A stretch of 64,000 bases of DNA from Octopus vulgaris (lineage: Eukaryota), in contig OX597840.1 in NCBI GenBank assembly GCA_951406725.2, positions 15,190,001-15,254,000 of the forward strand. Reading direction: 5' to 3'. Position numbers and translations under genes: made by a program. This document shows, piece after piece, positions 26,810 to 59,972 of the stretch (its first letter is position 1; each line of letters begins with the position of its first letter). The notes beneath the pieces were generated by a model, which did not search any database, was not told the DNA's origin, and saw only the letters and a list, made by a program, of their open reading frames with translations.

Positions 26810-26985
26810 GGAGGGGACTAGTCGATTACATAGACCCCAGTGTTTCACTGGTACGTAATTTATCAACCCCGAAAGGATGAAAGGCAAAGTCGACCTCAGT
26901 GGAATTTGAACTCAGAACATAAAGACGGACAAAATGTTGCTAAGCATTTTGCCTGGCATGCTAACTATTCTGCCAGCCCACCGCC

Positions 26986-27023
<38 letters not shown>

Positions 27024-27405
27024 CTTTTCTACTATAGGTACAAGGCCTGAAAATTTGGGGGAGGAGAATAGTTGATTAAATCAACCCCAGTATTCAACTG
27101 GTACTTTCGGACTCAGAATGTTGCAGTAGATGAAATGCTGCTAAGCATTTCACCCAGAATGCTAATAGTTCTTATTTCTTTACTGTCCACAAGGGGCTAC
27201 ACACAGAGGGGACAAACAAGGACAGACAAATGGATTAAGTCGATTATATTGACCCCAGTGTGTAACTGGTACTTAATTTATCGCCCCCAAAAGGATGAAA
27301 GGCAAAGTCGACCTCAGCGGAATTTGAACTCAGAACGTAGTGACAGACGAAATACTGCTAAGCATTTCGCCTGGCGCGCTAACGTTTCTGCCAGCTTGCT
27401 GCCTT
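26810..27405 (-). mobile_element. Cluster of three family B SINEs
   Basis: Repeated GGAATTTGAACTCAGAAC and GCTAAGCATTT motifs. Confidence 0.8.
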
Positions 27406-27976: not shown

Positions 27977-28050
27977 ATATACATACACACACACACACAT
28001 TCACATTCACATATATGCACTCGCTATATATATATAGTGAGCAGCAGAAA

Positions 28051-28108
28051 TTCAACAAAACCTGTTACTCGGAGTTTCACGTTCCCGTTCATCGGACAGT
28101 TTTGTTAA
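28051..28108 (-). ncRNA. Type I hammerhead ribozyme motif with U4C core variant (Penelope-like pseudo-LTR remnant)
   Basis: Minus strand UUAACAAAACUGU-CCGAUGA-ACG[GGAA]CGU-GAA-ACUC[C]GAGU-A-ACAGGUUUUGUUGA; all three stems pair; GUA cleavage triplet. Confidence 0.7.
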
Positions 28109-28130
28109 TATATATATATCTATATATATA

Positions 28131-28324
28131 TATCTGTAAAATAATATGTAACGATTATTCAATAGCCAAGATAAAACTCTGAGTTTTGCATACTGAAGTG
28201 GAAACACCATCTCTTCGGTTATCTGGCCAGATAACCGAAGTGGGATGGTGTTTCCACTTCAGTATGCAAAACTCAGAGTTTTATCTTGGCTATTGAATAA
28301 TCGTCACATATTATTTTACAGATA
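28131..28324. repeat. Near-perfect spacerless palindrome (96/98-bp arms), each arm carrying a decayed hammerhead motif
   Basis: Centre GGTTATCTGG|CCAGATAACC at 28226/28227. Confidence 0.9.
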
Positions 28325-28384
28325 AATTTCCTCTATTTACATAGTATTCAGATCTCTTTCTTTCTTTTGTTATCTTACCATTTT

Positions 28385-28757
28385 TAGGGCAGTGGATTTG
28401 TGGTCATAGGATTGCGGTTTCAATTCTCAGACCTGGCGTTGTGAGTGTTTATTGAGTGAATCACGCTAATCACACCCTAGTAGCATCCTTCTTTCTTTCT
28501 TCCCCCCCTATTTTTTTGTTTTCGAAAGCACTAAAGCTCTCGAAAACCTAAAGCTCCACGAGGCTCCGTCAGGGAGTGGTAGCAAACCCTGCTGTATTCT
28601 TTCACTACAACTTTCTCTCACTCTTTCTTTCTGTTTCTGTTGTACCTGTATTTCAAAGGGCCAGCTTGTCACACTGAATCTCCCTGAGAACTACATTAAG
28701 GGTACACATGTGTTTGTGCAGTGCTCAGCCACTTACATGTTAATTTCATGAGCAAGC
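28385..28757 (+). mobile_element. Family C SINE variant with an alternative tail and an internal templated insertion
   Basis: Head and body match 58428-58610; the tail diverges after CTCACTCTTTCTT. Confidence 0.75.
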
Positions 28758-30360
28758 ATTAATCCATATGTGTGAAGATATCTCATCATCGTCATTGTCA
28801 TCATCCTTCTTCTTGTCCAGGTATACTCAGGCATCTTCTATCTTTTACTGGCTTAGGTCATTGGTCAGTGGCCATGCTTGAAGCAGGGGTTTTAGTTGAA
28901 TAGGTCAGCCCTCGACTCCACTCAGTATTTATTTTTAACTTGGTTGCTTATTCTAGTGCTCTCTTTCACTGAAGCACTAAATTATGGGGATGCAAACAAG
29001 CCAACACCAGCTGCAAGTGTTGGTGCTAGGGACAAATACAGACACATAGATGCACACAAAACACTGAACCGTACAAAGGAGATGACAGAAAATTGGGATA
29101 TATGATGCATTGCTGCACTCAAGGAAACCTGCCCACCACCACAGAATCAAGATCCTAAAACCAAGGTGCCATGTAAAATTCATTGGTGTGAGTGCTGGAG
29201 CTACATAAAATGAACTGGTGCTTGTGCCATGTAAAAAGTACCCAGTACACTCTGTGGAGTGGTTGGCATTAGCGAGGGCACCAGGTCATAGAAGCCATGC
29301 CATACCAGAGTATGGAACCTGGTGAGACCCCTGACCTTGCCAGCTCCTGTCAAACCATCTGTTCCATGCCAGCATGGAAAATAGACATTAAGGATGATGA
29401 TGACGATGACAACGATATATACACACTGAGCTTTCAAATAGTTTCTTTTTACTAAATCCACTCACAAGGCATCGGTCAGTATGGAGGCTATAGCAGTAGA
29501 CACACAAGCAAGGTGCCATGCAATGGGATTGAACTTGAAGCAGCCTAGCTGGAAGATTATGCATCCTATCCACTCTTCCATGCCTGCACACGAATGATAA
29601 TACTGGAAGACAGAAACCTCATACAATATCCAATTCTCTTGCTAATCACACCCTAGTAGCATCCTTCTTTCCCTTCTTTCTTTCTTTCTTTCTTCCCCTT
29701 TTTTCTTCTTTTCGAAAGCACTAAATTATAAAACATACTGAATACTGTTATACAAGAGAAATTATGTCTGAAAAGACAAGATGGTCATTGCTGGAATGTC
29801 TTTGATCAATGTTCCACTGAATCAGGTCTGACCTGGAACTCATCATCCAACAACAATCTGCAGGAATTTAACTCGAGCATCAACCGCATCAATGTGGGTG
29901 GGCCAATAAGGATTAACTATGCCAGATCCCCGTTATCGGACTGATGTGAAAGAGTCAAGTAAGTAACAACAACAGTGGCTGCAGTATAATGCATCAAGCG
30001 ATGCATCCGTCTGTCTTTGATACAACATGCTGCATGCTTGCAACAACAACGAGGACACCAGATGCAGAGAGAGAGGGAGAAGGAATTTCATGCACGGATG
30101 CATGATGCAAGCATGTCTTCTTAGATACTGCAATACCACACTGCGCAATGGGAAAATGCATACACACACACACATATACATGCATACATATATGTATATA
30201 TATTTATATATGTATGTGTGTATGTGTGTGTATATTTGTATATACACACACACTTACATATGCATATGTGTATTCCAGTATGTGCATGCATTTACACACA
30301 CACTCATACGCATATATACACACACTCACACATACACATATGCATACATACATATGTGTT

Positions 30361-33402: not shown

Positions 33403-34230
33403 CCCGAGTAAGCACATAAATGTAAAACAAGGTGGGAAGAAATAGTATTCAAATACCGGAACTAGAGGAATATGCTTTATCAGTAAAGCTGCAAAAACAT
33501 CACAAAAATATCACAAAAAATTGCTACTCAGAGTTCCATGTCCTCATTTGATCACAACTGCCTGACAAACATGAATGTAAAACTTGCAGTTTTTGTGATA
33601 TTTTTTGAGGTTTTTGCATGTATGTATGTATGTACGTACGCATGTATGTATGTATGTATGTATGTACACGTACGTACATACATATGTACATACATACATA
33701 CATACATACATTCATTCATTCATTCTCTCATTCATTCTTTCATTCATTCCCACTTTAATAATTAGATGTTTACGAAAGGTGACTCTGATCGGAGTTTCTC
33801 ACAGATTACTTTTAAGTGAGAAACTCCTGTCAGAATCACCTTTTATAAACAGCTAATTATTAAAGAGGAAAAATTATCAGAAAAACGATTTCTGTTAATT
33901 TTTTCGAATAAATAATACTGTACCAAGGACTTTCTATTTCTTATTCTACAACACACACACACACATATGTACTTTTTTATACTAAAGCTGCAAAAAATCA
34001 CAAAAATATCACAAAGGATTGCTACTCAGAGTTTCACACTACCATTCATTGGACAATTTTCAATCAAAACTGTCTGACAAACGAGAACATGGAACTCCGA
34101 GTAGCAATTTTTTGGGATATTTTTGTGATTTTTTGCAGCTTTAATAATAATAAAGCGTATTACTCTACTTCCGGTATTTGAGTACTATTTTTTCCCACCT
34201 TGTTTCACATTTATGTGCTTACTTTGGTGT
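33403..34230. mobile_element. Two oppositely oriented fold-back units of the 28051 hammerhead family flanking a third palindrome (33753-33865)
   Basis: 33403-33550 is the reverse complement of 34078-34228; TACTC(A/G)GAGTT motif shared with 28066-28076. Confidence 0.75.
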
Positions 34231-58774: not shown

Positions 58775-59972
58775 TATTAGGATTGGCAGAAAAGTTCATA
58801 GGTTGATGAAGACACTCAAATAGAATGTGACCAAACATAGTCCTCTTTGCAGTCCACACACTTCTTCCATCAGTGTTCCAGTGCTTGGATCCCATTGGTG
58901 AAAAAGCTCTCATCCTGTTGGCCAAAAAAGCCATCAACAGCATCTATGAAGTCATCGTCACTGTGATTCTGGTTCCCAACCGACTGCTTTCTTTCTTGTT
59001 GTGGAACAGATGATAGTCAGATGAAACCAAATAAGGAGAAAAGATAGGGTGGAGCATTGTCCTGATGAAACAAGACCCCTTTTCTCAGTTCAGTGTCCCT
59101 GTGTATTTGGTCTTTATAGCCTTTCGTAACTGCCTCAGCAAGTTGGCATAGGACCACACCTCTCTATTGGTGGTGTGGTTCTTTTGGAAATAGTCATTCA
59201 ACCCAATGCTTTTAGTATCCCAAAAGACTGAGGCCATCACCTTCCCTACCAATGAAATGATTTTGGCTTTCTTTGAACCAGGTGAGGAGGGGGTGTTACC
59301 ACTGCATGGATTGTCTCTTTGTCTCTGGCTCAAAGCGATGAACTCAACACTCATTTTGGGTTGAGAAACATTCAAAGAAACCTGCTGGATCTGCTTCAAA
59401 CAATGTCAGATTTTCCCATGATTTTCAGCACATTTGATCAGGTGTCAGAAGATGTGGCATCCTCTGAGCAAAATCTTCATTATGCTAAGTTCATTGTGCA
59501 GAATATTCTCAGCTCTCACTGAATATGCCAATAGTATTGGCTGTTTGATTCATAGTCAATCGTCCATCATCCATCACCATATGGTGAACACGATCAATGT
59601 TTTCCTCGGTGGCGGCAGTTGCAGGATGTCCAGACTTGGGTCATCTACAAGACTCTCCATTCCTCTGCTAAATTCAGATGCCCACTTCTGCACTGTTGAT
59701 AAAGCTGGAGCATCATCTCCTGATGTAGCAGCCATGTCACTATGAATGTCCTTGGGGCTTAAACCCTTTTTCTGCAGGCACTTGATAATGCCACAATGCC
59801 AAATTTTGTCCCTTTTCAAGAGAGGTGGCTACTAGTTCTTTGAATAGTCAGTTTACCTGGAAAGAAACAAGGAGGTTATTAATAAGAAGAGCTGAAATTA
59901 ATGCATGGTAGAATTCACAGCTCAAGCATTACACCTCCGTAGTCAGCCTATGAGCTTTTCAGCCCACCCTCG
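58775..59972 (-). mobile_element. Near full-length decayed mariner element
   Basis: Terminal repeats GGATTGGCAGAAAAGTTCATAGGTTGA / TCAGCCTATGAGCTTTTCAGCCCACCC; IIKCLQKKGLSPKDIHSDM...STVQKWASEFSRG, GKVMASVFWD, LFHQDNAP and SDYHLF motifs across frameshifts. Confidence 0.9.

What the first reader, a model, noticed from the sequence alone, without database searches (positions are those of the whole stretch)
28051..28108. Structurally intact hammerhead candidate on the minus strand
Seen: stem I has 13 bp with one bulged G (UUAACAAAACUGU / ACAG-G-UUUUGUUGA). The core is CCGAUGA with C3-G8 intact, stem II is ACG/CGU closed by a GGAA GNRA tetraloop, then GAAA, stem III ACUC-C-GAGU and a GUA triplet. 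Predicted cleavage is between 28066 and 28065. Deviations from the canonical form are U4C and an A-U first pair in stem II. Inference: stem III forms either 3 bp with a CCG loop or an intermolecular duplex via its near-palindrome.
Basis: partly seen in the sequence, partly recalled or inferred. Interest (0 to 1): 0.72.

Follow-up and report, generated by a model that had tools for sequence, protein, structure and literature searches.

The report
Penelope-element stub with variant hammerhead
The hammerhead-ribozyme motif is real, but it is the 70-base cut-short end of a common Penelope-like jumping gene; its odd core letter is inherited from the parent element and shared by thousands of copies, and this single copy is likely inert.

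Summary
The sequence, pairing and cut site (28066/28065) are as described. The motif is not stand-alone. It is a ~70-bp 5'-truncated end of a Penelope-like retrotransposon with Hydra-clade protein motifs, inserted at a (TA)n tract. U4C is inherited: 1,291 exact core matches carry C4, against 102 with U4 and 67 with G5A, roughly CpG-decay level. Across related families, 10,568 motifs have C4 and 8,825 have U4. The C4 set includes near-identical tandem elements with intact ORFs. All 26 published Hydra hammerhead rows have U4. Folding favours the dimer (-31.8 kcal/mol) over the monomer fold (probability 0.001). Added here: copies chosen only by sequence 3' of the cut end at the 5' edge of stem I, not at the cut, in two families (99 of 100 and 29 of 30 within the wall). 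Cleavage and expression are untested. This scan noted Hydra stubs and a U4C family before, on other DNA. Verdict: known kind of element, modest new variant.

The parts
28051..28108 (-). Type I hammerhead motif, U4C variant: stem I 28108-28096 / 28065-28052, core 28095-28089, stem II with GGAA loop 28088-28079, GAA 28078-28076, palindromic stem III 28075-28067, predicted cut 28066/28065
28040..28112 (-). Family-1 stub: 5'-truncated 3' end (pLTR) of a Penelope-like element with Hydra-clade motifs. No ORF, no tail, no inverted partner; the last bases of the usual 3' end are missing. 28109-28112 is shared with the TA tract.
   Evidence: 97% over 73 bp to L031, whose upstream DNA encodes the endonuclease end; family ends
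28108..28135 (.). (TA)n-type tract between the two insertions, the usual target of this clade
   Evidence: PMC8557442 section 11
28128..28386 (.). Neighbouring insertion of a second family (family 2): head-to-head pair of hammerhead-bearing ends, 84-nt arms 28128-28211 / 28244-28327, tail on the + arm to about 28386. Minus-arm core CCGAAGA starts at 28218; both arms carry G12A and a stem II deletion.
33969..34228 (.). Older, decayed head-to-head pair of family 1. One arm reads U4, the other G5A, the two decay products expected from an ancestral C4-G5 CpG.
   Evidence: boundaries read by eye

Best explanation
This is the 5'-truncated, roughly 70-bp end of a high-copy Penelope-like retrotransposon with Hydra-clade protein motifs, inserted at a TA tract; it carries the parent's hammerhead motif with an inherited U4C change, and this copy is likely inert. 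Likely course: the element's reverse transcriptase primes on nicked (TA)n DNA and starts inside the RNA just 3' of the hammerhead (shown for an anole element, inferred here). It copies through an uncut hammerhead (shown: copies are continuous across the cut) and usually stops at the 5' edge of stem I (shown as a distribution of ends; cause inferred). In the parent RNA the ribozyme would cut after GUA as a dimer, two copies pairing through ACUC-N-GAGU, slowly because of U4C and probably with help from the element's protein (predicted, untested). For the stop I favour a hairpin in the new DNA plus a weak rU:dA hybrid at the U-tract before stem I (about 45%) over the RNA simply beginning there (about 35%).
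For: Same-family copies continue upstream into an RT plus C-terminal endonuclease frame with DKT, YRDDG, CxCX5C, CxxC and CxH, the features listed for Hydra. Copies sit in (TA)n; 51 of 100 sampled rows are flagged as having an inverted partner (my count); pairs have one tailed and one tail-less arm. C4: 1,291 exact matches vs 102 U4 and 67 G5A; 62 of 69 whole-core copies in a sample not chosen by core. Genomic copies decay without regard to function: G5 is changed in 10 of 69. Dimer fold -31.8 kcal/mol vs cofold minimum -32.8 and two monomers -23.8. 5' ends: 99 of 100 lie within 51 nt of the cut, 27 at 44-47 (stem I edge 43-45); family 2, with a longer stem II, 29 of 30 within 70 nt, 12 at 61-65 (edge about 61-64); constant-hazard expectation 53 and 17 copies beyond the wall, 1 seen in each. 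PMC11167929: internal initiation, uncut RNA as main template, protein-assisted cleavage.
Against: No cleavage or expression data: only assembled contigs of runs guessed to be RNA were available. No tree with published Hydra proteins was built, and the family-1 N-terminus (RWK) was not recovered. Pfam gave no hit for four family-1 fragments and only a sub-threshold GIY-YIG hit for the family-2 protein (E 0.018). U4 exceeds G5A (102 vs 67, P about 0.009), so some U4 copies may descend from U4 parents rather than from decay. Part of the dimer's energy gain would come to any hairpin that swaps arms. The end samples are the first 100 of 869 and first 30 of 475 matches in contig order, include both arms of some pairs, and ends are lengthened by chance matches to A/T-rich flanks. 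Younger subfamilies have many kilobase-long arms, so the wall does not hold for all insertions.
Confidence: 0.85

Rival explanations
1. [quoted passage not shown] Stubs are then run-off copies, like retroviral strong-stop DNA, and the hammerhead sits at the very start of the message.
For: In Drosophila virilis Penelope an intron starts 46 nt after the transcription start (PMC2377424 passages) and ends at the 5' end of helix I (PMC4209133). Internal initiation near the 5' end of the RNA (PMC11167929) would give short cDNAs. A pyrimidine tract plus AG lies at the wall in family 2 and in several family-1 subfamilies.
Against: The ends spread over about 20 nt rather than one position; some stubs keep 5-25 nt beyond the AG; the window's subfamily lacks that AG; sequence upstream of the wall is heterogeneous, with no shared first exon.
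Confidence: 0.35
2. The U4C hammerhead is catalytically dead or nearly so. The fold is kept for a structural role (protein binding, RT stop), or as a passenger.
For: U4C 'considerably decreases activity in vitro' (PMC3088659 passage). Hammerhead mutants do not affect insertion in vitro (PMC11167929). No pile-up of ends at the cut. Stem II is effectively 2 bp.
Against: The same passage says U4C still allows viroid infectivity. C3, G5, A6, G8, A9, G12-A15.1 and U16.1 are the majority state in both families, whose proteins are 42% identical. A younger sister subfamily has U4.
Confidence: 0.3
3. This copy is a working or host-adopted ribozyme at this locus.
For: All catalytic positions other than U4 and all of stem I are intact; there is no antisense arm of the same family to block it; the upstream fold-back pairs with itself and leaves stem I formed.
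Against: It is 97-99% identical to dozens of dispersed copies, so intactness reflects youth. There is no same-strand partner with a matching stem I nearby. No host exon was found among 148 open frames scanned (short exons would be missed).
Confidence: 0.05
4. It is a non-coding retrozyme or SINE-like family that copies itself as a short RNA.
For: Most sampled copies are under 150 bp with similar ends.
Against: Short copies match the ends of long coding copies subfamily by subfamily; no short tandem arrays of hammerhead units were seen; ends are ragged.
Confidence: 0.07

Closest known systems
Hydra clade of C-terminal-endonuclease Penelope-like elements (Craig et al. 2021, PMC8557442; abstract passages, section 11 and supplementary files S1, S2 read); nearest hammerheads Hydra-2_aMil and Hydra-2_aJap
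   Same: [quoted passage not shown] Hydra-2_aMil has the same CUGU/ACAG stem I start, ACUC-N-GAGU stem III and A17; 5 of 26 Hydra rows have that stem III.
   Different: All 26 published Hydra rows have U4; here C4 is the family state. The paper's relaxed core search asked for 'cuganga', so C4 motifs could have been missed. The published Hydra-1_Obim hammerhead has a different stem II and III.
Dimeric PLE hammerheads with small palindromic helix III (Cervera and De la Pena 2014, PMC4209133; parts 1-2 of 4 read, supplements not seen)
   Same: Type I motif in the pLTR, palindromic helix III, mostly single truncated copies, pairs on opposite strands, low predicted monomer activity.
   Different: Long stem I (13 bp), 2-3 bp stem II with a GNRA loop, no G10.1-C11.1 pair, U4C. 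The core variant named in the text I read is U3-A8.
Natural U4C viroid hammerhead (Ambros and Flores 1998, seen only as cited in PMC3088659; the paper itself is not held)
   Same: Same core change, reported to lower activity in vitro yet allow function in vivo.
   Different: There a viroid variant; here the state of whole retrotransposon subfamilies with thousands of copies.
Poseidon PLE of Anolis carolinensis (Frangieh et al. 2024, PMC11167929; passages and second half of main text read)
   Same: Two 3' ends (with and without tail), AT-rich targets, copies continuous across the hammerhead cut.
   Different: Different clade; hammerhead overlaps the ORF start there, while in family 2 the ORF starts about 260 nt after C3. 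No stop at the stem I edge is described in the parts I read.

Membership tests
Type I hammerhead ribozyme | Core C3, G5, A6, G8, A9, G12, A13, A14, A15.1-U16.1, H17 in type I order | tested here: met
   majority state in 69 whole-core copies
Type I hammerhead ribozyme | U at position 4 (canonical CUGANGA) | tested here: not met
   C4 here and in 1,291 exact matches; filed as a U4C variant, not as a canonical member
Type I hammerhead ribozyme | G10.1-C11.1 pair opening stem II | tested here: not met
   A-U here; A opposite A, G or C in sister subfamilies
Type I hammerhead ribozyme | Three helices can form around the core | tested here: inconclusive
   Outer stem I pairs 0.83-1.0, inner four 0.32-0.68, stem II about 0.3, monomer stem III about 0.05; dimer fold within 1 kcal/mol of the cofold minimum
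Type I hammerhead ribozyme | Match to an Rfam hammerhead model | tested here: not met
   none among 37 hits at E<=10
Type I hammerhead ribozyme | Site-specific self-cleavage after H17 | not testable with these tools
   needs an assay or raw RNA reads; only contigs were served
Hydra-clade Penelope-like elements | Single ORF, RT then C-terminal GIY-YIG-type endonuclease, upstream of the hammerhead | tested here: met
   family 1: L080-L084, L148-L151, hammerhead 0.8-1.2 kb after the frame; family 2: intact 717-codon frame; Pfam GIY-YIG only E 0.018
Hydra-clade Penelope-like elements | DKT; CxCX5C linker; CxxC and CxH around the conserved E and N; no CCHH cysteines in the GIY-YIG core | tested here: met
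   by motif search and by eye; the younger U4 sister subfamily has F in place of the second linker C
Hydra-clade Penelope-like elements | N-terminal RWK motif | tested here: inconclusive
   present in family 2; the family-1 N-terminus was not in the loci fetched
Hydra-clade Penelope-like elements | (TA)n targets, inverted ends, optional tail | tested here: met
Hydra-clade Penelope-like elements | Length under 3 kb | tested here: inconclusive
   family-2 unit 2,579-2,585 bp; no full-length family-1 copy recovered
Hydra-clade Penelope-like elements | Phylogenetic placement with published Hydra proteins | not tested
   published sequences were seen in the supplement but not used in any alignment
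Naiad (N-terminal endonuclease) PLEs | Endonuclease N-terminal to RT, no canonical hammerhead | tested here: not met
   endonuclease is C-terminal; definition
Non-LTR retrozymes | Non-coding tandem repeats with a hammerhead in each unit | tested here: not met
   no tandem repeat over the motif; the tandem arrays examined are coding 2.6-kb units; definition in 10.64898/2026.07.22.740005, part 1

The most novel reading that the evidence does not exclude
In these Penelope-like elements the hammerhead fold sets where reverse transcription stops. Stem I and the U-tract before it act as a terminator for the reverse transcriptase and produce the thousands of hammerhead-sized, often mirror-image stubs, while cleavage is tuned down (U4C, switched on and off between subfamilies of two lineages) because the enzyme needs uncut RNA. 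More than half of such motifs in this genome would be invisible to CUGANGA-based searches.
Probability: 0.3. Interest if true: 0.62.

Novelty: new variant of a known kind. Interest (0 to 1): 0.36.

Why it matters
The locus itself is ordinary debris. Two family-level points have some value. First, what the PLE hammerhead is for is an open question: mutants still insert in vitro (PMC11167929). Sister subfamilies with C4 and U4, and young intact C4 elements, give a natural comparison of cleavage rate against success in spreading. Second, the pile-up of 5' ends at the stem I edge in two families points either to a structural role in ending reverse transcription or to the RNA's 5' end, and both can be tested. 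In practice, ribozyme searches fixed on CUGANGA would miss 10,568 of the 19,393 motifs counted here.

Tried and rejected
Rfam scan: no hammerhead hit; the miRNA hits come from TA repeats and the neighbouring fold-back. Pfam on four family-1 fragments: nothing. PDB sequence search with the family-2 protein: nothing. First guess of Naiad rejected once the endonuclease proved C-terminal. A heterodimer with the neighbouring family-2 motif (same stem III palindrome) rejected: stem I arms do not match, that motif has G12A and is locked in an 84-bp fold-back. Run-off at the cut site rejected: 3 of 100 ends within 2 nt. L095 looked like a family-1 tandem array but is a host segmental repeat carrying stubs. 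Expression: no RNA holder listed on record; contigs of runs guessed to be RNA cover family sequence but cannot show strand, level or ends; the tool skipped 28030-28143 as repeat. These blanks are not evidence either way. Host gene: 148 open frames of 70 aa or more gave only mariner-type hits above cut-off. Direction of the C4/U4 change: the tree of 18 endonuclease rows is unrooted and holds duplicates, so it shows only that the U4/GCAA subfamily is younger (1.7% vs 6.8% mean distance). Literature: hammerhead + U4C, 1 paper; hammerhead + octopus + Penelope, 5 papers, 4 listed; CCGAUGA/CCGA/U4 terms, 4 papers, listing only; pLTR/promoter/truncated; general. None of the listings or passages seen describes a family-wide U4C or a stop at stem I. 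A 2017 RNA Biology paper on PLE hammerhead variants that cleave as dimers (recalled, not in the listings) and the supplements of PMC4209133 were not seen and may hold such variants.

Full report
Observation. Numbered as a type I hammerhead, stem I has 13 pairs with one G-U and one bulged G, the core reads CCGAUGA, stem II is ACG/CGU with a GGAA loop, then come GAA, the near-palindrome ACUC-C-GAGU and A17. The cut would fall between 28066 and 28065. A descriptor allowing C or U at position 4 finds only this site in the window; shuffled windows give 0.03-0.05. The fold is not unusually stable (z -0.23) and Rfam returns no hammerhead among 37 weak hits.

It is a repeat. The window lies on contig C27 of a 2.8-Gb genome in 227 contigs; size and repeat content suggest an octopus (inference from recalled values). 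A 68-base query gave 1,085 candidates, 40 scored, most 97-99% identical. Copies sit in (TA)n, end at one of two fixed 3' positions and often lie head to head. Longer copies run upstream through about 1.2 kb of non-coding DNA into a frame with a reverse-transcriptase YRDDG motif and a C-terminal endonuclease. DKT, CxCX5C, CxxC and CxH are present and the GIY-YIG core has no cysteines. These are the features given for the Hydra clade of Penelope-like elements (PMC8557442 section 11). The window holds only 28040-28112 of this element (97% to L031): no ORF, no tail, no partner arm. No tree with published proteins was made, so clade membership rests on motifs.

U4C is inherited. Exact matches to a 33-nt core pattern number 1,291 with C4, 102 with U4 and 67 with G5A. 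C4-G5 is a CpG, and U4 and G5A are its two decay products. U4 is somewhat in excess (P about 0.009), so a minority may have U4 parents. In 100 copies chosen only by the 25 bases 3' of the cut (first 100 of 869 matches), 69 held the whole core: position 4 was C in 62, U in 6, A in 1; G5 was A in 10; position 7 was C in 62 and U in 6. The window's U7 is therefore probably decay of a CpG, and catalytic positions decay as freely as neutral ones, as expected of unselected insertions. An older pair at about 33969-34228 shows U4 on one arm and G5A on the other.

The neighbour. The 84-bp fold-back at 28128-28327 is a head-to-head pair from a second family. Its relatives carry a hammerhead with core CCGAAGA, a long stem II and the same stem III palindrome. 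A 26-nt pattern with position 4 open gave 3,181 matches, and the 100 listed all had C4. This family has near-identical tandem units of 2,579-2,585 bp with an intact 717-codon frame holding RWK, DKT and CxCX5C, 42% identical to the family-1 protein. Young, intact elements thus carry C4. Both window arms have G12A and a deletion in stem II.

Position 4 varies by subfamily. With stem III fixed as ACUC-N-GAGU, the genome has 10,568 C4 and 8,825 U4 motifs (these patterns fix the other core positions, so they say nothing of their conservation). Both the short-stem-II and the long-stem-II lineages contain C4 and U4 subfamilies. In the short lineage the loop is GGAA or GCAA, 11.1 is U, C, G or A, and the bulged G becomes an A-G or A-A mismatch. 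A U4/GCAA sister subfamily is more uniform than the window's (1.7% vs 6.8% mean distance; 9 rows with duplicates vs 6). A return to U4 is plausible but unrooted. All 26 Hydra rows in the published table have U4, though that paper's core search asked for it. A natural U4C viroid hammerhead is known, with lower activity in vitro but function in vivo (PMC3088659, second-hand).

How it would cut. The monomeric active fold has ensemble probability 0.001 and stem III pair probabilities near 0.05. A two-strand fold with the palindromes paired and stems I swapped scores -31.8 kcal/mol, against a cofold minimum of -32.8 and -23.8 for two monomers; some of that gain is generic to hairpins. Dimeric, weak cleavage is reported for PLE hammerheads (PMC4209133). 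In an anole element cleavage needed the protein, and hammerhead mutants still inserted (PMC11167929). I infer slow, dimer- and protein-assisted cutting in tandem parent transcripts. The window copy has no same-strand partner with a matching stem I.

Where copies end. Of the 100 copies, 99 end within 51 nt upstream of the cut, 68 at 30-51 and 27 at 44-47; stem I begins at 43-45. Only 3 end within 2 nt of the cut, and 9 end at 9-11, several at the stem III palindrome. In family 2, where C3 is 51 nt from the cut, 29 of 30 end within 70 nt and 12 at 61-65, again the stem I edge. A constant rate of truncation would leave about 53 and 17 copies beyond these points; 1 was seen in each. Limits: contig-order samples, both arms of some pairs counted, chance matches to A/T flanks, and many long arms in younger subfamilies. 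The window copy, ending at 43, is typical. The cause is inferred: either a hairpin in the new DNA plus a weak rU:dA hybrid over the U-tract before stem I ends synthesis, or the RNA starts there. Drosophila Penelope has its start and intron just ahead of helix I. I found neither pattern described in the searches listed under Tried and rejected.

Expression could not be tested: only contigs of runs guessed to be RNA were served. No host exon was found.

Earlier notes of this scan, read after my reading was set, describe the same kind of Hydra stubs in this and other genomes, one with a U4C, GGAA-loop family. They are unchecked and not counted as support.

Verdict. Observation confirmed; interpretation partly supported. 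A known kind of element with a subfamily-wide core variant and a regular truncation pattern. The locus is ordinary; the family offers a usable test of what PLE hammerheads do. Interest 0.36.

Noticed in passing
window 28128-28386: Head-to-head pair from a second Hydra-type family, also C4, both arms G12A with a stem II deletion; two independent insertions share one TA tract.
   Followed up: yes
window 33969-34228: Older head-to-head pair of family 1, decayed at most CpG sites in opposite directions on the two arms.
   Followed up: partly
L094 776-9501 (G000:C1:57208000-57217500): Head-to-tail array of 99.7-100% identical 2.58-kb family-2 units, two with an intact 717-codon frame; six same-strand hammerheads in 14 kb. 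Recently active.
   Followed up: partly
L178, L186, L197, L201, L205: Inverted arms joined exactly at the stem III palindrome, as if two new DNA strands annealed there.
   Followed up: no
L057-L079 and L045-L052, just upstream of stem I: A pyrimidine tract plus AG, like a 3' splice site, lies at the stem I edge in family 2 and several family-1 subfamilies; in Drosophila Penelope an intron ends at helix I.
   Followed up: no
L153, L154 (G000:C1:364433 and 2524052): A third C4 motif with an intermediate stem II; parent element not identified.
   Followed up: no
window 59088-59828, minus strand: Mariner/Mos1-type transposase fragments (PF01359 E 2e-10, PF17906 E 2e-5).
   Followed up: no
window 28462-28534 and 29640-29720: Roughly 80-bp direct repeat 1.2 kb apart, seen by eye.
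   Followed up: no
window 26820-27000, 27070-27172 and 27238-27389: Several copies of another short dispersed repeat, partly picked up as direct repeats.
   Followed up: no
L095 (G000:C29:21177500-21186500): Host segmental repeat of 2.3-2.7 kb, three copies, each with the same G5A stub and a proline-rich frame.
   Followed up: partly
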